Shown: in pieces, positions 35,750-47,985 of the stretch
Layout: every line of letters starts with the position of its first letter
Position numbering within the stretch: the first letter of the stretch is position 1
Origin: Clostridia bacterium
GTDB lineage: Bacteria; Bacillota; Clostridia; Oscillospirales; CAG-272
Reading direction: 5' to 3'
DNA length: 64,000 bases
Assembly (NCBI GenBank): GCA_017396225.1
Contig: JAFQMP010000015.1
Span: 18,446-82,445, forward strand
Position numbers and translations under genes: made by a program
Notes under the pieces: generated by a model
The model's database searches: none
The model's input: only the letters and a program-made list of their open reading frames with translations
Told to the model about the DNA's origin: nothing

Positions 35750-37126
35750 ATGGAATACCGCATTGAACATGACTCCATGGGTGAGGTCAGAGTACCTGCC
35801 GACAAATACTGGGCGGCACAGACCGAGCGTAGTCATGAAAACTTCCGCATCGGTGTCGGCATTGAGATTATGCCGCGCGAAATCACGCGTGCCTTTGGCA
35901 TTCTCAAAAAGGCAGCGGCAATGGCAAACGCCGCGCTGAAGCCCGAGAAGATGACTGCCAAAAAGCTTGAGGTAATCTCTCTCGCCTGCGACGAGGTGAT
36001 GTCGGGTGCACTCAACGACCACTTCCCGCTGGTTGTCTGGCAGACAGGCTCCGGCACACAGTCCAACATGAACGCAAATGAGGTTATCGCAAACCGTGCA
36101 AATGAGCTTGCAGGTGAGCGCCTCTGCCACCCCAACGATGATATCAATATGAGCCAGTCCTCGAACGATACCTTCCCCACTGCGATGCATATCGCGGCGG
36201 TTTGCGCGATTGAGGATAAGCTCTTCCCCGCAATCGACCTGCTTATCGACACCTTCAAGCGTCTTGAAAAGGAGAATGAGGGCATTGTGAAGAGCGGCCG
36301 TACCCACCTGCAGGACGCAACGCCCATTACCTTTACGCAAGAGATTTCGGGCTGGCGCACCAGCCTTGAGCGTGACAAGGAGCTGCTTGCTGCATCGTTG
36401 CCCACCCTCAAGGAGCTTGCGCTTGGCGGCACCGCAGTCGGCACGGGTCTGAACACCCCCAAGGGCTTTGACGTCAAGGTTGCCGAGGCTGTTTCCGAGA
36501 TTACCGGTAAGCAGTTCCGTACCGCGGGCAACAAGTTCCATGCACTGACTTCTAAGGACGAGCTCGTCTTCGCACACGGCGCAATCAAGGCGCTTGCCTG
36601 CGATATGATGAAGATTGCAAACGACGTCCGCTGGCTGGCGTCCGGCCCCCGTCTTGGCCTTGGCGAGATTTTCATTCCCGAGAACGAGCCCGGCTCCTCT
36701 ATCATGCCCGGTAAGGTCAACCCCACCCAGTGTGAGGCTGTCACTATGGTAGCCGTTCAGGTTATGGGCAACGACGTGGCTGTTGGCATGGCTGCCTCCC
36801 AGGGCAACTTTGAGCTGAACGTGTTTATGCCTGTCTGCATCTACAATTTCCTGCAGTCCGCCAGACTGCTGGCTGAGGCAATCGTGTCCTTTAACAACAA
36901 CTGTGCCGTCGGCATCGTTGCCAACAAGGAGAAGATGCACGGCAACCTCCACAACTCCCTGATGCTGGTTACGGCTCTCAACCCCTATATCGGTTATGAG
37001 AACGCCGCTAAGACTGCCAAGAAGGCATACAAGGAGGGCATCTCCCTGAAGGAGGCCTGCGTCGCACTTGGCTTCCTGACTGCTGAACGCTTTGATGAGG
37101 TGTTCCACCCCGAGCAGATGGTATAA
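35750..37126 (+). CDS. fumC: class II fumarate hydratase
   Basis: 458 aa. Fumarate-lyase signature '[15 protein letters not shown]'. Begins '[28 protein letters not shown]'. Confidence 0.95.
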
Positions 37127-37413
37127 TTGCTTGCATCTTTGGCGCGGCGCGAGCGACTGAGCGCGGCGACGTACCGTGTACGCCTTGCCTTGCTCATTCA
37201 CTCACGCGGCACTCAAATCTGCGGCGCAATGCTTAATTTTTGGCGCGGCGCAAGAAAAATTAACTCGCCCGTATGACGAAGGTTATACCAAAATCCGATT
37301 TCATTGACCGCAAGGTTATTTGAATATGCCGCGGGGCAGGGAACTGCCCCTGCGGCCCATGAACCTGACGAAAACCCTTTTCGCCAACAAATTTACATGA
37401 AGGGAAAAAGCAT

Positions 37414-38196
37414 ATGAAATTCAGTTATTACCCCGGCTGTACGCTGAAAACGAAGGCCAAAGACCTTGATGCATACATGCGCGCCTCTGCAGAGGCGCTG
37501 GGTGTAGAGCTTGCAGAGCTGCCCGAGTGGCAGTGCTGCGGTGCTGTTTACCCCATGGCTAAGGACGAGATTGCTACCAAGCTTTCCGCTGTTCGCGCGC
37601 TGATGAGCGCACGCGACCTCGGCACTGACCTGGTAACGCTCTGCTCCGCCTGCCACAATGTCATCAAGCAGGTCAACCACGACATGAAGACCGATGCTGA
37701 CATCGCACTTCGTGCAAACAATTACATCGGTGCAGAAACGCCTTATATGGGCGAGACTGCCGTGCTGCACTTCCTGGAGGTGCTGCGTGACCGTGTCGGC
37801 TTTGACACACTCAAGGCCAAGGTCAAGAACCCTCTCACGGGCCGCAAGATTGGCGCTTACTACGGCTGTCTGCTGCTCCGTCCTTCCAAGATTATGGCAA
37901 TGGACGACCCTGAGAACCCCACCATTATTGAGGATTTTATCCGTGCAATCGGCGCAGAGCCCGTGATTTACGGTATGCGCAATGAGTGCTGTGGCGGCTA
38001 CGTCACCCTTGAAAACAAGGGCGAGGCAGAACGCCGTAGCAACATCGTGCTGGAGAGCGCGAAGGCCAAGGGTGCCGACACCGTTGTAACGGCTTGCCCC
38101 CTCTGCCTCTACAACCTCAAGAAGAACGGTGGCTGCGATGACGTTTCCGTCGTTTACTTTACCGAGCTGCTTGCAGAAGCGCTCGGTGTGAAATAA
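37414..38196 (+). CDS. hdrB: heterodisulfide reductase subunit B-like protein (two CCG domains)
   Basis: 260 aa. CCG motifs 'YYPGC..WQCCG..LCSACH' and 'YYGC..ECCGG..ACPLC'. Confidence 0.88.
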   Translation: MKFSYYPGCTLKTKAKDLDAYMRASAEALGVELAELPEWQCCGAVYPMAKDEIATKLSAVRALMSARDLGTDLVTLCSACHNVIKQVNHDMKTDADIALRANNYIGAETPYMGETAVLHFLEVLRDRVGFDTLKAKVKNPLTGRKIGAYYGCLLLRPSKIMAMDDPENPTIIEDFIRAIGAEPVIYGMRNECCGGYVTLENKGEAERRSNIVLESAKAKGADTVVTACPLCLYNLKKNGGCDDVSVVYFTELLAEALGVK

Positions 38197-38209
38197 GGAG
38201 GAATAACTG

Positions 38210-38605
38210 ATGAGCCACAATAAAAATGCAGCCGCAGTAGAAGAAGTTCTGCGTTCCTCCGGTGTAGACGTACGCAAGTGCATGCGTTGCGGCAAGTGCA
38301 CCGCAACCTGCCCCGCATTTGATGAGATGGAGTATCACCCCCACCAGTTTGTCTACATGGTAGAGAAGGGCCAGATTGACAAGCTCGCTGCGTCCGATTC
38401 TATCTACCGTTGCCTTTCCTGCTTTGCCTGCATGGAGCGTTGCCCCCGTCAGGTAGAGCCCGCGAAGCTGATTGAGGCAGTCCGTCTGCACGTCATTCGC
38501 GCAAAGGGCGCAAATCACCTGAAGCCCGAACAAATTCCCGCAATGCTTGACGAGGACCTGCCGCAGCAGGCTATCGCCAGCGCATTCCGCAAATACAGCA
38601 AGTAA
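38210..38605 (+). CDS. hdrC: heterodisulfide reductase subunit C-like 2x[4Fe-4S] protein
   Basis: 131 aa. 'CMRCGKCTATCP' and 'CLSCFACMERCP'. Confidence 0.85.
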   Translation: MSHNKNAAAVEEVLRSSGVDVRKCMRCGKCTATCPAFDEMEYHPHQFVYMVEKGQIDKLAASDSIYRCLSCFACMERCPRQVEPAKLIEAVRLHVIRAKGANHLKPEQIPAMLDEDLPQQAIASAFRKYSK

Positions 38606-38620
38606 GGAGGAGAAGCGATT

Positions 38621-40618
38621 ATGCAAAGAATTGGCGTATTTGTCTGTCACTGTGGCACCAACATTGCCGCAACCGTCGACGTAAAGGCCGTTGTTGAGGC
38701 GCTTTCTCACGAGCCCGGCGTCGTATTTGCGACCGACTACCAGTACATGTGCTCCGAATCGGGTCAGACCCTGATGCGTGAGGCCATTCGCGAGCATAAG
38801 CTCGGCGGTGTGGTTGTCTGCTCCTGCTCTCCCCGTATGCACGAGGCTACCTTCCGTAAGGCAGCTGCCAAAGAGGGTCTTAACCCCTACATGGTAGAGA
38901 TTGCAAATATCCGTGAGCAGGTATCCTGGATTCATAAGGATATCAAGGAAGGCACTGAGAAGGCAATTATCCTTGGTCGTGCCGCTATCGCAAAGGTACA
39001 TCTCAATCAGCCCCTGCAGGCAGGCGAGAGCCCTGTTACCAAGCGCGCGCTTGTTATTGGTGGCGGTATCGCAGGTATTCAGACTGCGCTTGATATTGCC
39101 GAGGCAGGCTTCGAGGTCGACATTGTCGAGAAGGAGCCCACCATTGGTGGTAAGATGGCGCAGATTGACAAGACCTTCCCCACCCTTGACTGTGCCGCTT
39201 GTATCCTGACCCCCAAGATGGTGGACGTTGCACAGCACGAGAAGATTAAGATTTTCTCCTACAGTGAGATTGAGTCCGTCAAGGGCTTCGTCGGTAACTT
39301 CCGCGTGGCTATCCGCCGCAAGGCGCGTTACGTTGACGAGGACAAGTGCACCGGCTGCGGCATCTGCACCGAGAAGTGCCCGCAGAAGAAGGTCCCCAAC
39401 GAGTTCAACATGGGCTTTGACACCCGTCGCGCCGTTTACATTCCCTTCGCACAGGCAGTGCCGAAGGTTGCCACCATTGATGCAAACTACTGCACGATGC
39501 TGAAGACCGGCAAGTGTGGCGTTTGCGCCAAGTTCTGCGGCGTAGGTGCTATCGACTACAAGCAGCAGGACCAGATTGTGGAGCGCGAGTACGGTGCGAT
39601 TGTTGCCGCAACCGGCTTCAATCCCCTCAAGCCCACCCAGTATGACGAGCTTGGTTATGCGACCTGCGCTGATGTGGTGACCTCCCTTGAGCTGGAGCGT
39701 CTGATGAACGCAGCGGGCCCGACCGCAGGCACGCTGCTTCGTCCCTCTGACAAGAAGCACCCCCACACCATCGTATTTGTACAGTGCGTCGGCTCCCGTT
39801 GCGATGCAGAGAACGAAAAGGGCAAGCCCTACTGCTCCAAGATTTGCTGCATGTATACCGCGAAGCACGCGATGCTGATTCGCGATAAGTACCCCGACAC
39901 CGAGGTTTACGTATTCTATATTGACGTACGTACCCCTGGTAAGAACTTTGATGAGTTCTACCGTCGTGCCGTAGAGCAGTACGGTGTTCACTACATCAAG
40001 GGTCAGGTTGGTAAGGTTGTTGAGGAGAACGGCACCCTGAAGGTGCAGGCAAGCGACCTGCTTTCCGGCGAGCAGCTTCACATTGATGCTGACCTCGTTG
40101 TTCTGGCAACCGCTGTTGAGCCTGACAAGAGCGCGCGCGGCATCGCCACGATGCTGACCGCCAGCATGGATACCAACGACTTCTTCACCGAGGCACACGC
40201 AAAGCTTCGTCCCGTAGAGTCCCCCACCGCGGGCATTTTCCTCTCGGGCGTTTGCCAGGGCCCCAAGGATATTCCCGAAACCGTATCCCAGGCATCTGCC
40301 GCAGCCGCAAAGGTTATCGGTCTGCTTGCCAAGGATAAGCTGACCTGCAATCCCTGCGTGGCACAGTCCGATGAGCTGCTTTGTAACGGCTGCTCCTCCT
40401 GTGAGCGTGTATGTCCTTACGGTGCTATCACCTATTCCGACAAGGAATTCCGCGGTCCCAACCGCACCACCCTTATCCGTCGCGTTGCTTCCGTTAACCC
40501 TGCAGTTTGCCAGGGCTGTGGCGCTTGTACCGTAGCTTGTCCCTCCGGTGCAATGGATTTGAAGGGCTTCTCGAACAGACAAATTATGGCGGAGGTTGAC
40601 GCAATATGCAAGATGTAA
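38621..40618 (+). CDS. hdrA: heterodisulfide reductase subunit A-like FAD/Fe-S flavoprotein
   Basis: 665 aa. 'ALVIGGGIAGIQTALDIAEAG', 'FPTLDCAACILTPKM', inserted and C-terminal ferredoxin motifs 'CTGCGICTEKCP', 'CNGCSSCERVCP', 'CQGCGACTVACP'. Confidence 0.9.
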   Translation: MQRIGVFVCHCGTNIAATVDVKAVVEALSHEPGVVFATDYQYMCSESGQTLMREAIREHKLGGVVVCSCSPRMHEATFRKAAAKEGLNPYMVEIANIREQVSWIHKDIKEGTEKAIILGRAAIAKVHLNQPLQAGESPVTKRALVIGGGIAGIQTALDIAEAGFEVDIVEKEPTIGGKMAQIDKTFPTLDCAACILTPKMVDVAQHEKIKIFSYSEIESVKGFVGNFRVAIRRKARYVDEDKCTGCGICTEKCPQKKVPNEFNMGFDTRRAVYIPFAQAVPKVATIDANYCTMLKTGKCGVCAKFCGVGAIDYKQQDQIVEREYGAIVAATGFNPLKPTQYDELGYATCADVVTSLELERLMNAAGPTAGTLLRPSDKKHPHTIVFVQCVGSRCDAENEKGKPYCSKICCMYTAKHAMLIRDKYPDTEVYVFYIDVRTPGKNFDEFYRRAVEQYGVHYIKGQVGKVVEENGTLKVQASDLLSGEQLHIDADLVVLATAVEPDKSARGIATMLTASMDTNDFFTEAHAKLRPVESPTAGIFLSGVCQGPKDIPETVSQASAAAAKVIGLLAKDKLTCNPCVAQSDELLCNGCSSCERVCPYGAITYSDKEFRGPNRTTLIRRVASVNPAVCQGCGACTVACPSGAMDLKGFSNRQIMAEVDAICKM

Positions 40619-41043
40619 AAGAATTCAGACCCACCATCGTAGCGTTTTGCTGCAACTGGTGCTCCTACGCAGGCGCTGACCTTGCAGGCTCCAGCCGCCT
40701 TGGTTACCCAGCAGACGTCAAGATCATTCGCGTTCCTTGCTCCTGCCGTGTAAACCCGCTGTTTATTCTCCGCGCATTCCAGCGCGGTGCTGACGGTGTG
40801 ATTATGGCAGGCTGTCACCCCGGTGACTGTCACTACACCAGCGGCAACTACTTTGCCCGTCGCCGTATGACGCTCCTGTTCTCTATGCTTGATTACCTCG
40901 GCATCGAGCGCGAGCGTACCCGTGTGGAGTGGATTTCTGCCGCAGAGGGTGCAAAGTTTGCCAAGACCATGAACGAATTTGTTGCCACCGTTACTGCCCT
41001 TGGTGAGAACAAGAGATTGGAGGACCTGAGATGCAAGAAATGA
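40606..41043 (+). CDS. mvhD: MvhD/FlxD-like hydrogenase iron-sulfur subunit
   Basis: 145 aa. 'IVAFCCNWCSYAGADLAG', 'IIRVPCSCRVN', 'GVIMAGCHPGDCHY'. Overlaps the hdrA stop by 13 nt. Confidence 0.85.
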   Translation: MQDVKEFRPTIVAFCCNWCSYAGADLAGSSRLGYPADVKIIRVPCSCRVNPLFILRAFQRGADGVIMAGCHPGDCHYTSGNYFARRRMTLLFSMLDYLGIERERTRVEWISAAEGAKFAKTMNEFVATVTALGENKRLEDLRCKK

Positions 41044-42002
41044 TGGTAAAGCGTGCCGTAGAGCTTCTTGAAAACGGCACCGTTGACCGCGTTCTCGGCT
41101 GGACCACGGGCGAGTTTGCCTACGATATGACGCCTGCCGTATTCCGTTCCGCGGACGATTTGAAGAACGGCTTTGTTTACAACGATTTCTGCGCTGCAAA
41201 CCTCTCCAAGTACCTCATCAAGGAGTGCGTTGCAGGCGGCAAGATTCTGGTATTCCTCAAGCCCTGCGATACTTACAGCTTCAATCAGCTGATTGCTGAG
41301 CACCGTATCAAGCGCGAGATGATTTATGTCATCGGCATCGCTTGCGAGGGCAAGGCTGATATTGACAAGCTCAAGGACATGGGCATTGACGGCATCACCG
41401 GTATCACTGCAAAGGACGGCGTTTACACTGTTGCCACCATCTATGGTGATGCAACCGTAAAGGCAACCGATGCAATGGCAGAGAGATGCCTCTCCTGCAA
41501 GAGTAAGAAGCACATGGCTTATGACGAGCTGATTGGCGAGGACGGCGACGTTGTCGCTGATTGCGGTCGCTTTGATATGGTAGAAAAGCTGGAGGCTATG
41601 ACCCCCGATGAGCGTTACGAGTTCTGGCGCGGTGAGCTTTCCCGTTGCATTCGCTGCAACGCCTGCCGTAACGTCTGCCCCGCTTGCTCCTGCGAGAAGT
41701 GCATTTTCGACAACCCGGGTTCGGGCGTTTCTCAGAAGGCAGCCGTGAACTCCTTTGAGGAGAACATGTTCCACATTATCCGCGCCTTCCACGTAGCAGG
41801 TCGCTGCACCGACTGCGGTGAGTGTACCCGCGTTTGCCCGCAGAACATTCCGCTTCATCTGCTCAACCGTAAGTTTATCAAGGATATCAACGCGTTCTGG
41901 GGTGAGTACCAGGCGGGCGAGAATCCCGATGCAAAGCCTCCGCTTGGCAGATACGAGAAGGGCGACAGAGAGCCCGGTGAGTTTGGAGGTGTTCAGGCAT
42001 GA
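41031..42002 (+). CDS. Fe-S protein, FrhB/FlxC-like (2x[4Fe-4S] plus N-terminal flavin-type domain)
   Basis: 323 aa. 'CIRCNACRNVCPACSCEKC' and 'CTDCGECTRVCPQNIP'. The N-terminal half resembles the F420-hydrogenase beta-like fold. Overlaps mvhD by 13 nt. Confidence 0.65.
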   Translation: MQEMMVKRAVELLENGTVDRVLGWTTGEFAYDMTPAVFRSADDLKNGFVYNDFCAANLSKYLIKECVAGGKILVFLKPCDTYSFNQLIAEHRIKREMIYVIGIACEGKADIDKLKDMGIDGITGITAKDGVYTVATIYGDATVKATDAMAERCLSCKSKKHMAYDELIGEDGDVVADCGRFDMVEKLEAMTPDERYEFWRGELSRCIRCNACRNVCPACSCEKCIFDNPGSGVSQKAAVNSFEENMFHIIRAFHVAGRCTDCGECTRVCPQNIPLHLLNRKFIKDINAFWGEYQAGENPDAKPPLGRYEKGDREPGEFGGVQA

Positions 42003-43021
42003 AAAAGTTAAGCTTTGCAAAGCTGAATGAGTTCTTTGCTGCGATTGCGGCAAAGGAGGCGCTCTACCTTCCTGTTAATAATAATGTAGGAAAGGCTGAG
42101 TTTAAGCAGTGGAGCGAGGGCGTAGAGCTCTCCCATGCGCTCAATACCGTACGCTCCGCAAAGGATTTCTTCTTCCCCCAGACCGAGAACCTGATGAAGT
42201 TCAAAATGGAGGGCAAGAGCATCGAGGTTTCTGACGACCGCGCTGAGTGTGAGGATTTTGTCGTATTTGGCGTACGCGCTTGCGATGCCGCCAGCTTCAA
42301 GATTCTTGACAGCGTCTACCTCGTAGACCCCATTGATACCTACTACAAGAACCGCCGTGAGCACGGCACTATCATTACCCTTGCATGCGGCAAGCCTGCA
42401 GAGACCTGCTTCTGCGGTACCTTTGGTATCGATGCAGCCGACCCCGCAGGTGACGTCACCGCATGGGAGACCCCGGGCGCTTATATGCTCCGCGCAAACA
42501 CCGAGAAGGGCGAGGCTCTCCTTGCGCTTGTCGCTGACCTTCTTGAGGAGGGCTGCGAAAAGGCTGTTGCCGAGGCGCAGGCAAAGACCCGTGAGATTCT
42601 CTCCAAGCTGCCCCTTGCAGGTCTTTCGACCGAGGGCGTTGGCGTTGGCATGACCAAGGAGCTTTTCGACCGTCCCGAGTGGAAGACCCTCTCCGAGTCC
42701 TGCCTTGGCTGCGGCACCTGCACCTTCGTGTGCCCCACCTGCCAGTGCTACGACGTGCGCGACTTTGATACCGGTAACGGCATCAAGCGCTTCCGTTGCT
42801 GGGACTCCTGCATGTACTCCGACTTCACCCTGATGGCACACGGCAACTCCCGTAACTCTCAGGTAGAGCGCTTCCGTCAGCGCTTCATGCACAAGCTGGT
42901 GTACTACCCCGACAGAAACAACGGCACCTTTGGCTGTGTCGGCTGCGGCAGATGCCTTGCACGCTGCCCCATCTCGATGAACATCGTCAAGGTCATGAAA
43001 ACATTGGGAGGTAAGAACTGA
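41999..43021 (+). CDS. AsrA/HydB/FlxB-like Fe-S subunit
   Basis: 340 aa. 'CLGCGTCTFVCPTCQCYD' and 'CVGCGRCLARCP'. Length and N-terminus resemble anaerobic sulfite reductase subunit A. ATGA overlap with the upstream gene. Confidence 0.7.
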   Translation: MKKLSFAKLNEFFAAIAAKEALYLPVNNNVGKAEFKQWSEGVELSHALNTVRSAKDFFFPQTENLMKFKMEGKSIEVSDDRAECEDFVVFGVRACDAASFKILDSVYLVDPIDTYYKNRREHGTIITLACGKPAETCFCGTFGIDAADPAGDVTAWETPGAYMLRANTEKGEALLALVADLLEEGCEKAVAEAQAKTREILSKLPLAGLSTEGVGVGMTKELFDRPEWKTLSESCLGCGTCTFVCPTCQCYDVRDFDTGNGIKRFRCWDSCMYSDFTLMAHGNSRNSQVERFRQRFMHKLVYYPDRNNGTFGCVGCGRCLARCPISMNIVKVMKTLGGKN

Positions 43022-43848
43022 TGAATAACGAAACTTTGATTCCTTATGTTGGCATTGTGACCGAAATCACGCAGCAGACTCCCGACGTTAAGACCTTCCG
43101 TGTAGAGGCTCCCGGTGGCGGCAAGCTTTTTGAGCACAAGCCCGGCCAGTGTGCCATGCTCTCTGTTCCCGGCATCAGCGAGGCAATGATTTCCATTACC
43201 TCCTCGCCGACGAACACCGAGTATATGGAATTCAGCGTCAAGAAGTGCGGTTGCCTTACCGAGTGGCTCCACGCCATGGAGGTTGGTCAGATGATTACCG
43301 TCCGCGGCCCCTACGGTCGTAACTTCCCCGTGTATGATGAGCTGCTCGGCAAGGATTTGCTTTTTGTTGCAGGCGGTATCGGTCTTGCACCGCTGCGTTC
43401 TGTTATCAATTACGTGCGCGACAACCGCGATAAGTTTGGTACGGTTGATATCGTGTACGGCTCCCGTTCCAAGGAGGACCTCGTTTACTATGACGAGATT
43501 GTGACCGAATGGTGCAATACCCCCGGCTTCAATGTTCACCTTACCATCGACCGTGAGCAGGAGAACTGGGACGGTCACGTCGGCTTCGTTCCCAACTTTG
43601 TCAAGGAGCTGAATCCTGACCTCAAGAAGACCGTTTTGATGTGCGGACCTCCAATTATGATCAAGTTTACGCTTGGTGGCCTGATGGAGCTTGGCTTCAA
43701 GAAGGAGCAGGTCTACACCACCATGGAGCTTCGTATGAAATGCGGCATCGGCAAGTGCGGTCGTTGCAATATCGGCAACAAGTACGTCTGCAAGGACGGC
43801 CCCGTGTTCCGCTTTGACGAGCTTGACGAACTTCCCAACGAATACTAA
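43021..43848 (+). CDS. AsrB/HydG/FlxA-like FAD/NAD(P)H-binding [2Fe-2S] oxidoreductase subunit
   Basis: 275 aa. FNR-like fold ('PGQCAMLSVPG', 'LLFVAGGIGLAPLRS') and C-terminal 'CGIGKCGRCNIG'. Overlaps the upstream stop by 1 nt. Confidence 0.75.
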   Translation: MNNETLIPYVGIVTEITQQTPDVKTFRVEAPGGGKLFEHKPGQCAMLSVPGISEAMISITSSPTNTEYMEFSVKKCGCLTEWLHAMEVGQMITVRGPYGRNFPVYDELLGKDLLFVAGGIGLAPLRSVINYVRDNRDKFGTVDIVYGSRSKEDLVYYDEIVTEWCNTPGFNVHLTIDREQENWDGHVGFVPNFVKELNPDLKKTVLMCGPPIMIKFTLGGLMELGFKKEQVYTTMELRMKCGIGKCGRCNIGNKYVCKDGPVFRFDELDELPNEY

Positions 43849-43866
43849 TAAGGAGAAAGCACAACA

Positions 43867-44541
43867 ATGGAAAAAATGGTTAATATTTACCTTTACGGTA
43901 AAAAATATGAAGTGCCTGCCAGCCTCACCATTATGAATGCAATGGAGTATGCAGGCTACCAGCTGGTACGCGGTGTCGGTTGCCGTTGCGGCTTCTGCGG
44001 CGCCTGCGCTACCATCTACCGCATCAAGGGTCAGAATGAGCTGAAGACCTGCCTCGCTTGCCAGACCAAGGTTGAGGACAATATGTACATCGCAACGCTG
44101 CCCTTCTTCCCCCTTGTAAAGCAGCCCTACGATATTCAGAAGATTAAGCCCACCGAGCAGATTATGATGCAGCTTTACCCTGAGATTTATTCTTGTGTTG
44201 GCTGCAACGCCTGCACCAAGGCCTGCACGCAGGACCTCAAGGTGATGCAGTACATCGCTTACGCACAGCGCGGCGAGTACGAGAAGTGCGCTGAGGAGTC
44301 CTTTGACTGCGTTATGTGCGGCGTTTGCTCCTCTCGTTGCCCTGCAGGCATTACCCACCCGCAGGTTGGTCTGCTTGCACGCCGTCTGACCGGTAAGTAC
44401 CTCGCTCCCGAAACCGAGCATCTGCTTGCACGCGTTGCTGAGATTGAGGCGGGCGATTGCGAGGCTGCCCTTGACGAGATTATGGCAAAGACCGCTGAGG
44501 AGCTGAAGGCTCTTTACAACAACCGCGATTTCGAGCAATAA
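43867..44541 (+). CDS. FrdB/SdhB-like iron-sulfur subunit
   Basis: 224 aa. N-terminal [2Fe-2S]-type 'CRCGFCGACATIY..C', then 'CVGCNACTKAC' and 'CVMCGVCSSRCP'. Confidence 0.75.
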   Translation: MEKMVNIYLYGKKYEVPASLTIMNAMEYAGYQLVRGVGCRCGFCGACATIYRIKGQNELKTCLACQTKVEDNMYIATLPFFPLVKQPYDIQKIKPTEQIMMQLYPEIYSCVGCNACTKACTQDLKVMQYIAYAQRGEYEKCAEESFDCVMCGVCSSRCPAGITHPQVGLLARRLTGKYLAPETEHLLARVAEIEAGDCEAALDEIMAKTAEELKALYNNRDFEQ

Positions 44542-44554
44542 GGAGGTGCGAACA

Positions 44555-46204
44555 ATGTATACACAGGAAATGTTAGAATCCATCAAGCGCGTGGAAGCAA
44601 CTCGCGCCGCACGCCTTGCAGACGTTAAGGCAGGCATTCACCCCCGTCGTATGACGGCAGAGGAGAAGGTTCAGGTTAAAAAGGAGAACCACCCCGACTA
44701 CATCGCATCTCAGTTTGCTGAGCTGGTAATCGGCCCCAACAGAGGTGAGCGCGTGCCGCTTGAGCTTGCAGAGATGCTGCAGGCAAACCCCCGCGTAAAC
44801 CCCAAGGACATTGACCTTTCCAAGATTGATTATGACGTAGACGTTCTCGTCATCGGCGGCGGCGGCTCCGGCTCCGCAGCAGCTATTATGGCACACGAGA
44901 AGGGTGCTAATGTTATGATTGTGACCAAGCTCCGCCATGGTGATGCAAACACCATGATGGCAGAGGGCGGTATTCAGGCTGCTGACAAGCCCAACGACAG
45001 CCCTGCACAGCACTACCTTGACGTCATGGGCGGCGGCCACTTCAAGAACGTTCCCGACCTCGTCAGAAAGCTCGTTACCGATGCACCTATCTGCATCAAG
45101 TGGCTCAATGACCTCGGCGTTATGTTCGACAAAGAGGCTGACGGCACCATGGTTACCACCCACGGTGGCGGTACCTCCCGCAAGCGTATGCATGCCTGCA
45201 AGGATTACTCCGGCGCAGAAATCATGCGCGTCCTTCGTGACGAGGTGCAGAACCGCGGTATCCCGGTTGTTGACTTTACCTCCGCTATCGAGATTATCAA
45301 GGACGAGAAGGGCAGAGCAGCCGGTGCAGTTCTCATGAATATGGAAACCGGTGAGCTTCTCATCGCGCGTGCAAAGACCGTTATCATCGCGACAGGCGGT
45401 GCCGGTCGTATGCACTACCAGGGCTTCCCCACCTCCAACCACTACGGTGCAACCGCTGACGGTCTGGTTCTTGCTTACCGTGCAGGCGCACCCCTCCTTT
45501 ACGCTTACACCCTGCAGTATCACCCCACGGGTGCTGCATACCCCAGCCAGATTTTCGGCGCACTGGTTACCGAGAAGGTTCGCTCTATCGGCGCACAGCT
45601 TGTCAACAAGGACGGCGAGCCCTTCATGTACTCCCTTGAGACCCGTGACATCTGCGCTTCCGGCGTTATCCGTGAGTGCAAGCGGGGGGGCGGCGTTGAC
45701 ACCTTTAACGGCGGTCAGGGCGTATGGCTCGACTCTCCCATGATTGATATGATTCACGGCGAGGGCACCATTGAGAAGCGCATTCCCGCAATGCTTCGTA
45801 TGTACCTCAAGTACGGTATCGATATGCGTAAGCAGCCCATTCTGATTTATCCCACTCTCCACTACCAGAACGGTGGCATCAAGATTGGCGTAAACGGTAT
45901 GTCCGACGTTGAGAACCTGTTTGTTGCAGGTGAGGCAGTCGGCGGTATCCACGGTGAGAACCGTCTGATGGGTAACTCGCTGCTTGACATCATCGTATTC
46001 GGCCGCAACGCAGGCGTACACGCCGCAGCCGCCGCAAAGGAGGTCACCCTTGGCAAGAAGCTTACGCTCAGCCACGTGAAGGACTTCATGAAGGAGATGA
46101 AGGCAGCAGGCATCAAGACCGATGCTGTTTCTCCCAAGCTTCTTCCTCGCTACACCCACGGCAACCCCGTGTTTGATCAGCCCAACGCAAAGCTGATGAA
46201 GTAA
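44555..46204 (+). CDS. FrdA/SdhA/NadB-family flavoprotein (fumarate reductase-like catalytic subunit)
   Basis: 549 aa from ATG 44555 (RBS AAGGAGGTG; the track's GTG at 44546 sits inside the RBS). 'VLVIGGGGSGSAAA', 'QYHPTG', 'SLETRD', 'PTLHYQNGG', 'GEAVGGIHGENRLMGNSL'. Confidence 0.85.
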   Translation: MYTQEMLESIKRVEATRAARLADVKAGIHPRRMTAEEKVQVKKENHPDYIASQFAELVIGPNRGERVPLELAEMLQANPRVNPKDIDLSKIDYDVDVLVIGGGGSGSAAAIMAHEKGANVMIVTKLRHGDANTMMAEGGIQAADKPNDSPAQHYLDVMGGGHFKNVPDLVRKLVTDAPICIKWLNDLGVMFDKEADGTMVTTHGGGTSRKRMHACKDYSGAEIMRVLRDEVQNRGIPVVDFTSAIEIIKDEKGRAAGAVLMNMETGELLIARAKTVIIATGGAGRMHYQGFPTSNHYGATADGLVLAYRAGAPLLYAYTLQYHPTGAAYPSQIFGALVTEKVRSIGAQLVNKDGEPFMYSLETRDICASGVIRECKRGGGVDTFNGGQGVWLDSPMIDMIHGEGTIEKRIPAMLRMYLKYGIDMRKQPILIYPTLHYQNGGIKIGVNGMSDVENLFVAGEAVGGIHGENRLMGNSLLDIIVFGRNAGVHAAAAAKEVTLGKKLTLSHVKDFMKEMKAAGIKTDAVSPKLLPRYTHGNPVFDQPNAKLMK

Positions 46205-46212
46205 TTTTTGCA

Positions 46213-46243
46213 TACACGCCGCCGCCATTGGCGGCGGCGTGTA
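46213..46243 (+). terminator. GC-rich hairpin after the frdA-like gene (possible attenuating or processing hairpin; no U-tract)
   Basis: TACACGCCGCCGCC-ATTG-GCGGCGGCGTGTA perfect stem, not followed by a T-run. Confidence 0.35.
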
Positions 46244-46368
46244 CACCGCTTCCTTGCAGATCAAAAGACGTTTTCGGATAAAGACCACTTGCGGTGTTTA
46301 ATGCCGCCAAGCGCCTTTTCTTCTGTGTGGAAGCAAATCCTTTTTAATTATTTGGAGATATTCAAAAA

Positions 46369-47985
46369 ATGAAAAACGCAATTCGTATTATTTTGCTTGC
46401 GGTTGTTCTGGTGCTGCTTTGCTTCCCCTTTGTGGAGTTGGGTCGCCCTGCGAGCTCGGTGGCGGATATGGCCGCAAGGGCTACCGATAAGGAATATCAG
46501 GTTGTACCGATGGACAGCGAGTTTCCCATCGCCGTTAAAATTGACGACGAGGTCAAGGAGCTGACTGCCAAGGGTGCCGTCATAGCTACCAAGGGTAAGA
46601 ACTCTCTTACCGTCATTTATCTTGGCAGTAAGGCTGATGCCAAGGACGTTTACAATTACTACAAGGGTGAGCTTGACGACAACGTGGTGCTTGAGCGCAG
46701 CGGCAGTATCGTTTACTTTGGTACCGACGCGGCACGCGGCGAGCTGATTCGTCCCGCCTTCTTCAATACCTTCAAGGGTATTTTGAAGGTGAACGGTGTT
46801 TCCTTCTTGATTTACAGCGTGTTTGTTATTGCCGCGCTTGGTTATCTGCTTGGCCGTGTTACCTTTAAGGGCGTTAACCTTGGTACTGCGGGCGTATTCC
46901 TTGTGGCGCTTCTCTTTGGCTGCCTGTTCTATAAGGACCTTGCCTTCCAGCTGCCCGCCTACACCACCAACGCCTTGAAGGTTGTGGAAAACCTTGGCTT
47001 GATTCTTTTCGTAACCTCGGTTGGCTTTATTGCAGGCCCCAAGTTCTTCGGTAATCTGAAAAAGAACTTTAAGACCTATATTCTGCTTGGCTTGCTTATC
47101 ATTGTGTCGGGTGCCGCTGTTTGCGCACTTTGCGTACTGATTCAAAGCAACTTTACCGACCTGCCCAAGGGCGACCTTGCCGCTATTATGGCGGGCTTGT
47201 TCTCGGGTGCTCTCACCTCTACCCCTGCCTTCTCCGCTGCTAAGGCTGCCGCTACCGCACAGGGTATTGATGAGTCCCTCGTTGCCGTTGGTAACGGTAT
47301 CGCTTATATCTTTGGCGTTATTGGCGTTGTGCTTTTCGTACAGCTTGTTCCCAAGTTCCTCAAGGCCAATATGGCAGAGGAGCGCGCTAAGATTGCAGGC
47401 GGTGACGCCGATACGGGCGAGGAGCCTGTTGAGGCTGCAGAAACCAAGAAGATGATTGAGATTGACCCCTTCGGCATTGCCGCATTTGCACTTGCCGCTA
47501 TCATCGGTGTTATCGTTGGCTCTTTCAAGTTTGGCAACTTCTCCCTGACTACCACGGGCGGCTGCCTGCTTGTGGCGCTTGTCTTCGGCCACTTTGGCAA
47601 GATGGGCTCCATCAAGCTGATGCCCTCTGCGCAGACGCTTAAGGTTTTCCGTGAGTTTGGTCTGATGATCTTCCTCATCGGTGCAGGCGTTGCGGGTGGC
47701 GCTAAGTTCGTTCAGTACTTCGAGGCAATCTACTTCCTCTACGGCGCAATTATGACGCTGGTTCCCATGGTAATCGGCTTCTTCTTTGCAAAGTACGTGC
47801 TGAAGATGCACCTTCTCAACAGCCTTGGCTCGATTACGGGCGGCATGACCTCTACCCCCGCGCTCGGCACCCTGATTCAGGTTTCCGAGACCGAGGACGT
47901 AGGTGCCGCTTACGCTGCAACCTACCCCATTGCACTTATTTCCGTGGTGCTTTGCGCACAGTTTGTCATTATCCTCTTTGGTTGA
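46369..47985 (+). CDS. AAEx-family (AspT/YidE/YbjL/SucE-like) transporter with N-terminal extracytoplasmic domain
   Basis: 538 aa. Signal-anchor, a soluble domain of about 110 aa, then two homologous membrane halves, each starting with '..G..LG.(V/F)KFG..(L/S)LG/T.GG.L(V/L)ALLFG'-type hairpins ('VNLGTAGVFLVALLFG', 'FSLTTTGGCLLVALVFG'). Confidence 0.7.
   Translation: MKNAIRIILLAVVLVLLCFPFVELGRPASSVADMAARATDKEYQVVPMDSEFPIAVKIDDEVKELTAKGAVIATKGKNSLTVIYLGSKADAKDVYNYYKGELDDNVVLERSGSIVYFGTDAARGELIRPAFFNTFKGILKVNGVSFLIYSVFVIAALGYLLGRVTFKGVNLGTAGVFLVALLFGCLFYKDLAFQLPAYTTNALKVVENLGLILFVTSVGFIAGPKFFGNLKKNFKTYILLGLLIIVSGAAVCALCVLIQSNFTDLPKGDLAAIMAGLFSGALTSTPAFSAAKAAATAQGIDESLVAVGNGIAYIFGVIGVVLFVQLVPKFLKANMAEERAKIAGGDADTGEEPVEAAETKKMIEIDPFGIAAFALAAIIGVIVGSFKFGNFSLTTTGGCLLVALVFGHFGKMGSIKLMPSAQTLKVFREFGLMIFLIGAGVAGGAKFVQYFEAIYFLYGAIMTLVPMVIGFFFAKYVLKMHLLNSLGSITGGMTSTPALGTLIQVSETEDVGAAYAATYPIALISVVLCAQFVIILFG

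What the first reader, a model, noticed from the sequence alone, without database searches (positions are those of the whole stretch)
35750..47985. fumC, hdrBCA-mvhD, Flx/Asr-like NADH module, FrdB/FrdA-like pair and an AAEx transporter: candidate flavin-based electron-bifurcating soluble fumarate reductase
Seen in the sequence: nine plus-strand genes (37414-46204) are translationally coupled. The junctions are gaps of 13, 15, 18 and 13 nt and overlaps of 13, 13, 4 and 1 nt.

The gene products are:
- HdrB-like, with two CCG motifs
- HdrC-like
- HdrA-like, with FAD and ferredoxin motifs
- MvhD-like
- an FrhB/FlxC-like Fe-S protein
- AsrA-like and AsrB-like subunits (FNR-type NAD(P)H/FAD fold plus 2Fe-2S)
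- an FrdB-like Fe-S subunit
- an FrdA-like flavoprotein

No siroheme AsrC-like subunit, hydrogenase large subunit, DsrC, MetF or formate dehydrogenase is present. Class II fumarase, with its own consensus promoter, lies directly upstream. An AAEx-family transporter lies directly downstream.

Established knowledge: FlxABCD-HdrABC of Desulfovibrio is a proposed NADH-dependent bifurcating complex. Methanogen thiol:fumarate reductase TfrB fuses an FrdB-like module to HdrB-like CCG domains, so Hdr-to-Frd electron wiring has precedent. Fumarate/succinate (about +30 mV) is a suitable high-potential acceptor relative to NADH (-320 mV) and ferredoxin. The AAEx family contains the succinate exporter SucE and the aspartate:alanine exchanger AspT.

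Inference: the locus encodes a cytoplasmic complex that couples NADH oxidation to simultaneous reduction of fumarate and ferredoxin (or the reverse), fed by fumarase, with succinate exported. I am not aware of a biochemically characterised Hdr/Flx-Frd complex of this composition.
Basis: partly seen in the sequence, partly recalled or inferred. Interest (0 to 1): 0.8.

Follow-up and report, generated by a model that had tools for sequence, protein, structure and literature searches.

The report
Hdr/Flx-linked soluble fumarate reductase operon
This gut Clostridia operon joins fumarase, a heterodisulfide-reductase/NADH-dehydrogenase module, a soluble fumarate-reductase pair and a transporter; it is the ortholog of the published but never purified "succinate operon" of Pseudoclostridium thermosuccinogenes, so it is real and widespread but not a new idea.

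Summary
All eleven ORFs, their junctions and their domain content are as described, with small corrections.

The cluster fumC-hdrBCA-flxDCBA-frdBA is a collinear ortholog (54-81% identity, full length) of the "succinate operon" of Pseudoclostridium thermosuccinogenes. Koendjbiharie and co-workers (2019 preprint; BMC Microbiol 2020) proposed that operon as an electron-bifurcating Flx-Hdr/fumarate reductase and showed by RNA-seq that it is co-regulated. A similar flx-hdr-tfrAB link was proposed for tubeworm symbionts (mSphere 2019).

I found no biochemical characterisation in the paper library.

New comparative evidence:
- At least 591 species genomes encode close relatives.
- In 80 loci the nine genes are always collinear, with no exception.
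- Where fumC is missing upstream, a malate dehydrogenase sits there instead.
- A rearranged bacterial version, an archaeal version without Flx, a NuoF-linked version and a natural FrdB-FrdA fusion all exist.
- The flavoprotein keeps every dicarboxylate catalytic residue.
- It has lost the covalent-FAD histidine and the C-terminal domain, and its nearest named family is TfrA.

Best reading: a cytoplasmic complex catalysing 2 NADH + fumarate + oxidised ferredoxin -> succinate + reduced ferredoxin. Bifurcation is inferred, not shown.

Verdict: new member of a known, still hypothetical, kind; moderate interest.

The parts
35641..35669 (+). sigma-70-type promoter (TTGACG, 17 nt, extended -10 TG-n-TATAAT) upstream of fumC
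   Evidence: 11 of 12 matches, TG present; sequence
35750..37126 (+). fumC, class II fumarate hydratase (458 aa)
   Evidence: Lyase_1 + FumaraseC_C; TIGR00979 716 bits, above its cut-off of 665. Present upstream in 37 of 45 testable related loci.
37127..37413 (+). 287-nt structured spacer between fumC and hdrB; no promoter-like or T-run terminator-like site on the + strand
   Evidence: MFE -108 kcal/mol, z = -4.46. Close relatives have only 26-30 nt here.
37414..38196 (+). HdrB-like subunit (260 aa) with two complete CCG motifs (C9, C41C42, C77xxC80; C151, C191C192, C227xxC230)
   Evidence: Full-length match to methanogen HdrB. The top NCBIfam hit is SdhE, the CCG subunit of type-E fumarate reductase.
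38210..38605 (+). HdrC-like 2x[4Fe-4S] subunit (131 aa)
38621..40618 (+). HdrA-like flavoprotein (665 aa): FAD domain plus an N-terminal, an inserted and a C-terminal Fe-S domain. Proposed bifurcation site.
   Evidence: 711 bits; residues 3-661 align with 5-648 of 5odc_A
40606..41043 (+). MvhD/FlxD-like subunit (145 aa)
   Evidence: FlpD positions 1-123 of 123, E = 6e-55
41031..42002 (+). FlxC-like Fe-S protein (323 aa), 2x[4Fe-4S] motif; no FrhB domain
41999..43021 (+). FlxB-like (AsrA / sulfhydrogenase-beta-like) Fe-S protein (340 aa)
   Evidence: Fer4_22; ShyB/HydB/AsrA models, all below cut-off
43021..43848 (+). FlxA-like NAD(P)H:FAD oxidoreductase with a C-terminal 2Fe-2S (275 aa). Proposed NADH entry site.
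   Evidence: FAD_binding_6, NAD_binding_1, DHODB_Fe-S_bind
43867..44541 (+). FrdB-like Fe-S subunit (224 aa): SdhB-type 2Fe-2S motif (C39, C44, C47, C65) plus two CxxCxxCxxxC(P) motifs
   Evidence: 77% identical to the P. thermosuccinogenes protein P0521. Naturally fused to the flavoprotein in P0122.
44555..46204 (+). FrdA/TfrA-like flavoprotein (549 aa) with a conserved 95-aa N-terminal extension, a non-covalent FAD site (Asn132) and no C-terminal Sdh domain
46219..46241 (+). GC-rich hairpin (CGCCGCCGCCATTGGCGGCGGCG) after frdA, without a T-run
   Evidence: read directly from the sequence; not listed by the terminator scan
46369..47985 (+). AAEx-family transporter (538 aa) with two Asp-Al_Ex repeats and an extra N-terminal ~140 aa. 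Candidate succinate exporter or dicarboxylate exchanger.
   Evidence: TIGR01625 136 bits against a cut-off of 72; AspT equivalogs far below cut-off. Downstream in 64 of 68 related loci. Absent from the P. thermosuccinogenes locus.

Best explanation
The locus is one operon for the last steps of the reductive branch to succinate in a quinone-independent, cytoplasmic form.

**Proposed path of carbon and electrons**
1. FumC makes fumarate from malate.
2. NADH is oxidised at FlxA (FAD, 2Fe-2S).
3. Electrons pass through the Fe-S proteins FlxB and FlxC and the MvhD-like FlxD to the FAD of HdrA.
4. At HdrA the electron pair is split.
   - The low-potential electron leaves through HdrA's ferredoxin domains to ferredoxin.
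   - The high-potential electron runs through HdrC, the CCG clusters of HdrB and the three clusters of the FrdB-like subunit to the non-covalent FAD of the FrdA/TfrA-like subunit.
5. The FrdA/TfrA-like subunit reduces fumarate to succinate.
6. The AAEx transporter exports succinate, or exchanges it for a C4 substrate.

**Net reaction:** 2 NADH + fumarate + Fd(ox) -> 2 NAD+ + succinate + Fd(red). This is about -40 kJ/mol under standard conditions, taking -320, +30 and about -450 mV.

**Physiological consequence.** Reduced ferredoxin can then drive Rnf or a hydrogenase. That would give Clostridia without quinones an energy yield from fumarate reduction.

**Shown here**
- Gene content, cofactor motifs and catalytic residues.
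- Obligate synteny.
- Orthology to the P. thermosuccinogenes operon.

**Inferred**
- That the subunits form one complex.
- Direct HdrB-to-FrdB electron transfer.
- Ferredoxin co-reduction.
- The substrate of the transporter.
For: **Orthology to the published operon**
- The window's ten genes from fumC to frdA are collinear with the P. thermosuccinogenes 'succinate operon' at 54-81% identity.
- That organism is a succinate producer. The operon was co-regulated about 4-fold in RNA-seq, and the same model was proposed for it (PMC7282089).

**Linkage**
- In 80 species-level loci the counts are hdrB 49/49, hdrC 50/50, hdrA 51/51, flxD 57/57, flxC 60/60, flxB 64/64, flxA 69/69 and frdB 73/73. There are no order violations.
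- At least 591 genomes carry close relatives.
- The gene set is kept, in a different order, in Maledivibacter halophilus: fumC-frdBA-hdrBCA-flxDCBA.
- hdrA-mvhD-hdrCB-frdBA also occurs in Bathyarchaeota.

**Substrate**
- The equivalents of E. coli SdhA H242, T254, E255, R286, H354 and R399 are H323, T339, E340, R364, H436 and R470. All are invariant in 41 family members.
- The best NCBIfam hit is TfrA. The nearest outgroup clusters are TfrA-like, and one of them passes the TfrA cut-off.
- The AF2 model (pLDDT 81, pTM 0.84) best matches E. coli FrdA and other SdhA/FrdA chains.
- fumC lies upstream in 37 of 45 loci. In four of the loci that lack it there (L011, L066, L072, L077), the gene just upstream is a lactate/malate dehydrogenase-family protein. 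The two I read, L011 and L066, carry Arg at the specificity position, so they are LDH-like malate dehydrogenases.

**Direction**
- The covalent-FAD His (SdhA H45) is Asn132 and is invariant.
- From established knowledge of E. coli FrdA H44 mutants, non-covalent FAD supports fumarate reduction but not succinate oxidation.

**Bifurcation module**
- HdrA matches, over its full length, the HdrA of the solved methanogen Hdr complex 5odc_A (711 bits). I know that complex (MvhAGD-HdrABC) to be electron-bifurcating.
- MvhD and HdrB/HdrC are complete.

**Precedent for CCG-to-FrdB wiring**
- HdrB's top NCBIfam hit is SdhE, the CCG subunit of a type-E fumarate reductase.
- Segments of the TfrB model match the FrdB-like protein, HdrC and HdrB, as if TfrB were a fusion of these modules.
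- A natural FrdB-FrdA fusion exists (P0122).
Against: - No biochemical data exist for this or any orthologous complex. FlxABCD-HdrABC itself has, to my knowledge, only genetic support as a bifurcating enzyme.
- HdrB keeps both CCG motifs, which in methanogens form a disulfide-reducing site, so a thiol/disulfide intermediate is not excluded.
- The FrdB-like subunit resembles SdhB/FrdB only weakly by sequence (25-36 bits). Its AF2 model was unusable (pLDDT 50.7).
- A gammaproteobacterial relative pairs FrdAB with a NuoF-like protein and no Hdr. The reductase module therefore does not need Hdr in itself.
- The presence of Rnf or a hydrogenase, and the absence of quinones, could not be checked from a 64-kb window.
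- The transporter is not conserved in P. thermosuccinogenes.
Confidence: 0.6

Rival explanations
1. Non-bifurcating NADH:fumarate oxidoreductase. The Flx and Hdr subunits act only as an electron wire from NADH to FrdAB, and ferredoxin is not reduced.
For: The gammaproteobacterial relative has only frdB-frdA plus a NuoF-like NADH-binding subunit. A simple NADH-linked version of this reductase is therefore plausible. NADH-to-fumarate transfer is strongly exergonic by itself.
Against: Seven extra redox subunits, including a complete HdrA with all ferredoxin domains, are conserved without exception in 80 loci. That would be an extravagant wire. In the solved Hdr complexes I know of, the full-length HdrA architecture is the bifurcating unit.
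Confidence: 0.15
2. Thiol-mediated two-step system. Flx-Hdr reduces an unidentified disulfide (a small thiol pair or a DsrC-like protein) with ferredoxin co-reduction. FrdAB, using HdrB's CCG site, acts as a thiol:fumarate reductase like methanogen TfrAB.
For: HdrB keeps all ten CCG cysteines. The flavoprotein's closest named family is TfrA. The published models mention thiols or a DsrC-like carrier (PMC7282089; PMC11636981).
Against: No DsrC-like or thiol-cofactor gene is in the cluster or its flanks. The FrdB-like subunit has no CCG domain of its own, unlike TfrB. Only one HdrB is present, and it would have to serve both half-reactions. The CCG subunit SdhE is part of a methylmenaquinol:fumarate reductase, an enzyme with no thiol substrate (NCBIfam name; the rest is my own knowledge).
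Confidence: 0.12
3. The flavoprotein reduces or oxidises a different substrate, such as another enoate or dicarboxylate (mesaconate, for example) or L-aspartate. The fumarase neighbourhood would then be coincidental.
For: The protein falls below every curated NCBIfam cut-off (TfrA 329 bits against 718). It has an unusual N-terminal extension and lacks the C-terminal domain. The FAD_binding_2 family includes urocanate and other reductases.
Against: All fumarate/succinate catalytic residues are invariant. The NadB-specific Glu121 is His. fumC is adjacent in most loci, and in four of those without it a malate dehydrogenase-family gene takes its place; two independent gene orders keep the link. 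The ortholog sits in a known succinate producer, whose published pathway assigns fumarate reduction to this operon (PMC7282089).
Confidence: 0.08
4. Reverse operation. Succinate is oxidised with confurcation of electrons from succinate and reduced ferredoxin onto NAD+.
For: Some electron-bifurcating enzymes are reversible. Some gut anaerobes consume succinate.
Against: The reaction is about +40 kJ/mol uphill under standard conditions. The covalent-FAD histidine needed for efficient succinate oxidation is replaced by Asn in all members. The cultured carrier produces succinate (PMC7282089).
Confidence: 0.03

Closest known systems
'Succinate operon' / Flx-Hdr-linked fumarate reductase of Pseudoclostridium thermosuccinogenes (Koendjbiharie & van Kranenburg 2019 preprint; Koendjbiharie et al. 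2020, PMC7282089)
   Same: Same ten genes in the same order (fumC, hdrB, hdrC, hdrA, mvhD, flxC, flxB, flxA, frdB, frdA) at 54-81% identity over full length. The proposed mechanism is the same.
   Different: The window comes from an uncultured animal-gut Clostridia/Oscillospiraceae lineage. It carries an AAEx transporter downstream where P. thermosuccinogenes has a 93-aa hypothetical protein, and no LysR regulator upstream. The published system is itself only a genomic and transcriptomic hypothesis.
FlxABCD-HdrABC of Desulfovibrio vulgaris (Ramos et al. 2015)
   Same: The same seven subunit types are present: an FNR-like FlxA with 2Fe-2S, two Fe-S proteins FlxB and FlxC, an MvhD-like FlxD, and HdrA, HdrB and HdrC.
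   Different: The gene order is hdrBCA-flxDCBA rather than flxABCD-hdrABC. The cluster is linked to FrdAB and fumarase. The D. vulgaris system is linked to ethanol metabolism (title of Ramos et al. 2015, cited), with DsrC as its proposed acceptor (my own knowledge). No DsrC is present here.
Thiol:fumarate reductase TfrAB of methanogens
   Same: It is a soluble, quinone-independent fumarate reductase. The flavoprotein's best curated match is TfrA, and the nearest outgroup clusters are TfrA-like. FrdB-like, HdrC-like and HdrB-like segments each match parts of the TfrB model.
   Different: TfrB is a single polypeptide with its own CCG domains and uses CoM-SH plus CoB-SH. Here the modules are separate proteins and the CCG protein is the HdrB of a full HdrABC. 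The flavoprotein scores 329 bits against the TfrA cut-off of 718, has an N-terminal extension and lacks the C-terminal domain.
MvhAGD-HdrABC of methanogens (PDB 5ODC), the structurally defined bifurcating Hdr
   Same: HdrA, HdrB, HdrC and MvhD are full-length homologs. Electrons would enter via MvhD and split at the HdrA FAD.
   Different: The electron donor module is an NADH-dependent Flx set, not a [NiFe] hydrogenase. The proposed high-potential acceptor is fumarate via FrdAB, not CoM-S-S-CoB.
Complex II type quinol:fumarate reductases and succinate dehydrogenases (FrdABCD, SdhABCD; type E SdhABEF with the CCG subunit SdhE)
   Same: The flavoprotein fold and catalytic residues match. The 2Fe-2S motif is SdhB-type. 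A CCG protein is associated with an SdhB-like subunit, as in type E enzymes.
   Different: There is no membrane anchor or quinone site. FAD is non-covalent (His replaced by Asn). There is no Succ_DH_flav_C domain. Both distal clusters have four Cys, so no 3Fe-4S motif is present.
flxABCD-hdrABC-korABCD-tfrAB clusters of tubeworm symbionts and Thioflavicoccus (Rubin-Blum et al. 2019, PMC6315080; PMC11636981)
   Same: These papers published the proposal that Hdr-Flx delivers electrons directly to a soluble fumarate reductase. The Bathyarchaeota locus found here (OFOR-hdrA-mvhD-hdrC-hdrB-frdB-frdA) has a similar layout.
   Different: The symbiont clusters are part of an autotrophic reverse TCA cycle and also contain 2-oxoglutarate:ferredoxin oxidoreductase. 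I did not test their sequence relationship to the window.

Membership tests
Flx-Hdr-linked fumarate reductase operon as described in P. thermosuccinogenes | Collinear gene set: fumarate hydratase, 7 Flx/Hdr genes, 2 fumarate reductase genes | tested here: met
   L086 carries fumC, hdrB, hdrC, hdrA, mvhD, flxC, flxB, flxA, frdB, frdA in the same order. This matches the paper's locus tags RS03365, RS03360-30 and RS03325-20.
Flx-Hdr-linked fumarate reductase operon as described in P. thermosuccinogenes | Orthology of each subunit | tested here: met
   tblastn identities of 54-81% over essentially full length for all ten proteins
Flx-Hdr-linked fumarate reductase operon as described in P. thermosuccinogenes | Co-transcription and co-regulation of the genes | not testable with these tools
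   RNA-seq exists only for P. thermosuccinogenes (PMC7282089). In the window only the overlaps and short gaps, and the lack of terminators, speak for one transcript.
Flx-Hdr-linked fumarate reductase operon as described in P. thermosuccinogenes | NADH- and fumarate-dependent ferredoxin reduction | not testable with these tools
   No report of it was found in the paper library.
FlxABCD-HdrABC NADH dehydrogenase/heterodisulfide reductase | FlxA with NAD(P)H/FAD domains and 2Fe-2S; FlxB and FlxC Fe-S proteins; MvhD-like FlxD | tested here: met
   Pfam and NCBIfam. FlxB and FlxC share the CxxCxxCxxxCP...C motif.
FlxABCD-HdrABC NADH dehydrogenase/heterodisulfide reductase | Complete HdrA (FAD plus Fe-S domains), HdrB with two CCG motifs, HdrC with two 4Fe-4S | tested here: met
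FlxABCD-HdrABC NADH dehydrogenase/heterodisulfide reductase | Disulfide acceptor (DsrC or heterodisulfide) as the high-potential substrate | tested here: not met
   No DsrC-like gene is in the cluster or its flanks. An FrdAB pair occupies that position instead.
SdhA/FrdA flavoprotein family (complex II type) | FAD_binding_2 fold with capping domain and the catalytic His, Thr-Glu, Arg, His, Arg set | tested here: met
   Pfam 224 bits. H323, T339, E340, R364, H436 and R470 are invariant. Top fold hits are 1kf6_A and other FrdA/SdhA chains.
SdhA/FrdA flavoprotein family (complex II type) | Histidine for covalent 8-alpha-FAD linkage | tested here: not met
   SdhA H45 aligns with Asn132, which is invariant in 41 sequences.
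SdhA/FrdA flavoprotein family (complex II type) | C-terminal Succ_DH_flav_C domain, membrane anchor and quinone site | tested here: not met
   No Pfam hit beyond residue ~480. The curated models match only up to about model position 415-420. No anchor gene is in the cluster.
Thiol:fumarate reductase TfrAB | TfrA equivalog score | tested here: not met
   329.5 bits against a cut-off of 718. It is nevertheless the best-scoring family.
Thiol:fumarate reductase TfrAB | Fe-S subunit fused to CCG domains (TfrB) | tested here: not met
   The FrdB-like protein is 224 aa and has no CCG domain. The CCG domains reside in the separate HdrB.
L-aspartate oxidase NadB | NadB equivalog score, the conserved Glu121, and a stand-alone enzyme without an Fe-S partner | tested here: not met
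   TIGR00551 scores 261 bits against 453. Glu121 aligns with His203. The protein is always paired with the FrdB-like subunit, in 73 of 73 loci.
SdhB/FrdB iron-sulfur subunit | N-terminal 2Fe-2S domain (CxxxxCxxC...C) followed by a dicluster domain | tested here: inconclusive
   The motifs are present and invariant. The N-domain matches the TfrB and dhsB models in register, but at only 30-36 bits, below cut-offs. PDB profile hits to FrdB/SDHB are weak. The AF2 model is too poor for a fold search.
AAEx (aspartate:alanine exchanger) transporter family | Two Asp-Al_Ex membrane repeats | tested here: met
   PF06826 scores 202 bits over 2 stretches. TIGR01625 scores 136 bits against a cut-off of 72.
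AAEx (aspartate:alanine exchanger) transporter family | Equivalence to a characterised member (AspT, or the succinate exporter SucE) | tested here: not met
   The AspT equivalog TIGR03802 scores 133 bits against 547. No SucE-specific model was hit. The substrate is not testable here.

The most novel reading that the evidence does not exclude
The nine proteins form a single cytoplasmic flavin-based electron-bifurcating enzyme: an NADH-dependent fumarate:ferredoxin oxidoreductase. It would be the first bifurcating system with fumarate as the high-potential acceptor and with direct HdrB-to-FrdB cluster wiring, without a thiol intermediate.

It would give quinone-free Clostridia an Rnf-coupled form of 'fumarate respiration'. 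It is present in at least several hundred gut and rumen species. Modular relatives exist in Bathyarchaeota (no Flx, next to a 2-oxoacid:ferredoxin oxidoreductase) and in Gammaproteobacteria (NuoF-linked).
Probability: 0.5. Interest if true: 0.7.

Novelty: new member of a known kind. Interest (0 to 1): 0.42.

Why it matters
If the model holds, a large group of gut and rumen Clostridia make succinate with a soluble enzyme that also generates reduced ferredoxin. At least 591 species genomes matched the search.

That would change energy and hydrogen budgets for these organisms. It would explain succinate formation without menaquinone. It would also add a new acceptor class to electron bifurcation.

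The enzyme has been proposed in print but never isolated. The comparative data here add three things:
- They show how widespread and invariant the gene set is.
- They name cultured carriers for biochemistry: P. thermosuccinogenes and Maledivibacter halophilus.
- They identify natural variants useful for dissecting the mechanism: the FrdB-FrdA fusion, the Flx-less archaeal form and the NuoF-linked form.

Tried and rejected
- **FrdB-like structure.** The AF2 model came out at pLDDT 50.7, too poor for a fold search. The SdhB-like fold of that subunit therefore rests on motifs and weak profile hits only.
- **PDB profile search with the FrdB-like alignment.** It was dominated by generic 2x[4Fe-4S] proteins. 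FrdB/SDHB matched only weakly.
- **Rfam scan of 35000-48900.** It found no riboswitch or leader, only a tRNA.
- **The 2019 preprint** (10.20944/preprints201912.0288.v1) is not held. Its content is known only through PMC7282089.
- **Literature searches for a purified enzyme** found nothing. The two extra papers I opened to check, PMC9044749 and PMC8085960, add nothing on this enzyme.
- **NadB (L-aspartate oxidase)** was considered and rejected.
- **The 'FrhB-like' label for the FlxC-like protein** was rejected, because it has no FrhB domain.
- **Apparent absence of fumC in the near-identical contig L002.** This is a gene-calling artefact. The caller took the antisense ORF, and tblastn finds fumC at 100% identity.
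- **Cluster look-ups of the 50%-identity representatives.** They gave no cultured organism. P. thermosuccinogenes was reached only through the FrdB-like profile search.
- **Rest of the genome.** I could not check it for Rnf, hydrogenases or menaquinone genes.

Full report
**1. The observation**

The ORF list reproduces the eleven plus-strand genes at the stated coordinates, and the eight junctions exactly. The gaps are 13, 15, 18 and 13 nt and the overlaps are 13, 13, 4 and 1 nt. The last gap holds if frdA starts at ATG 44555, which sits 8 nt behind AAGGAGG. The mechanical ORF begins at GTG 44546.

Pfam and NCBIfam give the following:
- a class II fumarase above its equivalog cut-off;
- an HdrB-like protein with two CCG domains;
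- an HdrC-like dicluster protein;
- a full-length HdrA;
- a full-length MvhD (FlpD) protein;
- two Fe-S proteins;
- an FNR-type NAD(P)H/FAD protein with the DHODB-type 2Fe-2S;
- a 224-aa 2Fe-2S plus dicluster protein;
- a FAD_binding_2 flavoprotein;
- a two-repeat Asp-Al_Ex transporter.

A near-consensus extended -10 promoter lies at 35641-35669. No T-run terminator-like hairpin separates fumC from hdrB. A GC hairpin without a T-run follows frdA.

- The 323-aa protein has no FrhB domain and is only a distant paralog of FlxB.
- The flavoprotein has a 95-aa N-terminal extension and lacks the C-terminal Sdh domain.
- Both distal cluster motifs of the FrdB-like protein have four cysteines.

**2. 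Whose genes these are**

The flavoprotein has hundreds of 87-100% identical relatives. They are annotated only as 'FAD-binding protein' and come from Clostridia / Oscillospiraceae (Ruminococcaceae) MAGs.

The best 80 (73-98% identity) are all gut, caecum, colon or rumen Clostridia. They are labelled Oscillospiraceae, Acutalibacteraceae, Lachnospiraceae, Faecalimonas, Tyzzerella or Candidatus Scatosoma.

**3. Linkage**

I searched all eleven window proteins against those 80 loci with tblastn. I counted only positions that the contig actually covers.

| Gene | Present / testable loci |
|---|---|
| hdrB | 49/49 |
| hdrC | 50/50 |
| hdrA | 51/51 |
| flxD | 57/57 |
| flxC | 60/60 |
| flxB | 64/64 |
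| flxA | 69/69 |
| frdB | 73/73 |
| fumC | 37/45 |
| AAEx | 64/68 |

All were on the same strand and there were no order violations.

In four loci without fumC upstream (L011, L066, L072, L077) the gene directly before hdrB belongs to the lactate/malate dehydrogenase family. The two sequences I read carry Arg in the GIARKPG/GVARKAG loop. This is the position whose Gln-to-Arg change turns LDH into MDH (established knowledge), so they are LDH-like malate dehydrogenases.

The neighbourhood therefore spells out oxaloacetate -> malate -> fumarate -> (this complex) -> transporter.

**4. Prior art**

A full-text search found Koendjbiharie et al. 2020 (PMC7282089). It describes a 'succinate operon' in Pseudoclostridium thermosuccinogenes with these parts:
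[quoted passage not shown] - fumarate reductase (RS03325-20);
- a hypothetical protein proposed as a succinate transporter.

The operon was about 4-fold up-regulated under CO2 limitation. Fumarate reduction was assumed to be linked to ferredoxin reduction 'as proposed previously' by Ramos et al. [quoted passage not shown]

A profile search with the FrdB-like protein returned the P. thermosuccinogenes protein at 77% identity (P0521). Its contig carries LysR, fumC, hdrB, hdrC, hdrA, mvhD, flxC, flxB, flxA, frdB, frdA and a 93-aa ORF. All ten shared proteins are 54-81% identical to the window's over full length. The window cluster is therefore the ortholog of that published operon.

Independently, Rubin-Blum et al. 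2019 (PMC6315080) and a 2024 expression study (PMC11636981) proposed that flxABCD-hdrABC feeds a soluble 'thiol:fumarate reductase' and 2-oxoglutarate:ferredoxin oxidoreductase in tubeworm symbionts.

Eight literature searches found no purified or assayed enzyme.

**5. The reductase module**

By curated models the flavoprotein is closest to methanogen TfrA, at 329 bits. Generic SdhA/FrdA scores 267 bits and NadB 261 bits. All are below cut-off.

The library of 50%-identity representatives holds only about ten full-length clusters with the N-terminal extension. Beyond them, at 37-41% identity, eight of the ten clusters I scanned score best as TfrA, and one passes the TfrA cut-off. The other two score best as a fumarate reductase/succinate dehydrogenase flavoprotein or as NadB.

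Alignment to E. coli SdhA (1nek_A) maps the catalytic residues as follows:

| E. coli SdhA | Window protein |
|---|---|
| H242 | H323 |
| T254 | T339 |
| E255 | E340 |
| R286 | R364 |
| H354 | H436 |
| R399 | R470 |

All six are invariant in a 41-sequence family alignment. The covalent-flavinylation His45 aligns with an invariant Asn132. The NadB-specific Glu121 aligns with His203.

From established knowledge of E. coli FrdA His44 variants, non-covalent FAD is compatible with fumarate reduction but not with efficient succinate oxidation. This fixes the likely direction.

The AF2 model is good (pLDDT 81.3, pTM 0.84) and the N-terminal extension is confidently helical. Its best PDB matches are E. 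coli FrdA and other SdhA/FrdA chains, followed by the soluble flavocytochrome c3 fumarate reductases.

The FrdB-like subunit has an SdhB-type CxxxxCxxC...C motif (C39, C44, C47, C65) and two invariant CxxCxxCxxxC(P) motifs. Its N-domain matches the TfrB and SdhB models in register, but weakly. A 727-aa natural fusion of the FrdB-like protein and the flavoprotein exists (P0122). The structure prediction for the FrdB-like subunit failed.

**6. The electron-input module**

HdrA aligns over residues 3-661 with residues 5-648 of the HdrA of the crystallised methanogen Hdr complex 5odc_A (711 bits). I know that complex (MvhAGD-HdrABC) to be electron-bifurcating. HdrB aligns over its full length with methanogen HdrB and keeps all ten CCG cysteines.

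HdrB's best NCBIfam hit is SdhE, the CCG subunit of methylmenaquinol:fumarate reductase. Separate segments of the TfrB model match the FrdB-like protein, HdrC and HdrB. CCG proteins wired to SdhB-like subunits thus have two precedents, one of them with no thiol substrate.

**7. Variants elsewhere**

- Maledivibacter halophilus, a named species with a genome assembly, has fumC-frdB-frdA-hdrB-hdrC-hdrA-flxD-flxC-flxB-flxA. The set is the same in a different order, with frdA 62% identical.
- A Bathyarchaeota contig has a three-subunit 2-oxoacid:ferredoxin oxidoreductase followed by hdrA-mvhD-hdrC-hdrB-frdB-frdA. It has no Flx genes, and frdA is 57% identical.
- A marine gammaproteobacterial contig has only frdB-frdA plus a NuoF-like NADH-binding subunit, with frdA 46% identical.

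FrdAB thus behaves as a terminal-reductase module that is coupled to different electron-input modules. The Hdr coupling is old and has been reassembled more than once.

**8. Mechanism**

The best-supported model is this:
1. NADH is oxidised at FlxA.
2. Electrons travel through FlxB, FlxC and FlxD to the HdrA flavin.
3. They bifurcate there, one branch to ferredoxin and the other through HdrC, HdrB and FrdB to the FrdA flavin and fumarate.

With -320 mV for NADH, +30 mV for fumarate/succinate and about -450 mV for ferredoxin, the four-electron reaction is about -40 kJ/mol. These are established potentials and the arithmetic is mine.

Shown here: the parts, their cofactor motifs, their invariable co-occurrence and the pathway context.

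Inferred: a physical complex, direct HdrB-to-FrdB transfer, ferredoxin reduction, and export of succinate by the AAEx protein. The AAEx protein is a divergent family member, far below the AspT equivalog cut-off. It is not conserved in P. thermosuccinogenes.

Rivals, in order of plausibility: a non-bifurcating NADH:fumarate reductase; a thiol- or DsrC-mediated two-step system; another substrate; reverse operation.

**9. Verdict**

It coincides with a hypothesis already in the literature for the orthologous operon, so this is a new member of a known, still untested, kind.

Its residual interest lies in two points. The predicted enzyme class has never been demonstrated. It also turns out to be very widespread and strictly conserved in gut and rumen Clostridia.

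Noticed in passing
window 1841-10723 (- strand): Replication-origin neighbourhood: gyrA (1841-4393), gyrB (4415-6373), dnaN (7794-8948) and dnaA (9386-10723). GC drops to 0.42-0.45 at 6-10 kb, and the GC skew changes sign there.
   Followed up: partly
window 51756-53051 (+ strand): Three small co-directional genes: a PARP-like ADP-ribosyltransferase domain protein (185 aa, just at the Pfam cut-off), a 100-aa protein with no family, and a SecB-like chaperone (136 aa). They resemble a toxin-antitoxin-chaperone triad with an ART toxin. They sit in the low-GC stretch at 48-54 kb.
   Followed up: partly
window 48850-51414 (- strand): An 854-aa BspA-type leucine-rich-repeat / Listeria-Bacteroides-repeat surface protein in a region of 39-43% GC, against about 54% elsewhere. 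It may have been acquired horizontally.
   Followed up: no
window 48345-48419 (+) and 25932-26007 (-): tRNA-Glu(CTC) lies just downstream of the transporter gene and is followed by a terminator-like hairpin at 48431-48448. tRNA-Trp(CCA) lies at 25.9 kb.
   Followed up: yes
window 37127-37413: The 287-nt fumC-hdrB spacer folds far better than shuffles (z = -4.46). It carries TTGGCGCGGCGC twice; a third copy is at 32473, although three copies in the window is within chance (10 of 100 shuffles). Close relatives (L007, L044) have only 26-30 nt here. It looks like an inserted structured element of unknown role.
   Followed up: partly
window 33822-35494 (- strand): sufBD-like and sufC-like Fe-S assembly genes diverge from the fumC promoter, next to an operon that needs more than 15 Fe-S clusters.
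   Followed up: no
L011 1725-2741, L066 1775-2779, L072 1289-2236, L077 1833-2780: In loci without fumC upstream, the gene just upstream of hdrB belongs to the lactate/malate dehydrogenase family. The two sequences I read (L011, L066) have Arg at the substrate-specificity position, so they are LDH-like malate dehydrogenases. NCBIfam would name them L-lactate dehydrogenase.
   Followed up: yes
L085 744-9415 (Bathyarchaeota contig): An archaeal version: 2-oxoacid:ferredoxin oxidoreductase alpha/beta/gamma, then hdrA, mvhD, hdrC, hdrB, frdB, frdA, with no Flx genes. The electron donor is unknown.
   Followed up: partly
L084 9366-12891 (Gammaproteobacteria MAG); P0286 (Prochlorococcus sp. MIT 1201): A three-gene frdB-frdA-NuoF-like module without Hdr occurs in marine Gammaproteobacteria/Thiotrichales. 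A 42%-identical homolog with the same N-terminal extension is annotated in a Prochlorococcus genome. I did not examine its context.
   Followed up: partly
P0122 (727 aa): A natural fusion of the FrdB-like Fe-S protein to the flavoprotein.
   Followed up: partly
P0107 (616 aa): P0107 shows an internal duplication of the segment around KLRxGDANTMMAEGGIQAADKPNDSPA. It is probably an assembly artefact.
   Followed up: partly
L002 1193-2683: In a contig identical to the window, the public gene call at the fumC position is a 496-aa antisense ORF with no Pfam hit. fumC is in fact there at 100% identity. Context tables built on those calls would miss the fumarase link.
   Followed up: yes
80 related loci: Conservation within the cluster is uneven. 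FrdA, FrdB, HdrA and FlxD have median identities of 80-85%. HdrB, HdrC, FlxB and FlxC have medians of 61-67%. The AAEx gene ranges from 42 to 90%, which suggests turnover or replacement of the transporter.
   Followed up: no
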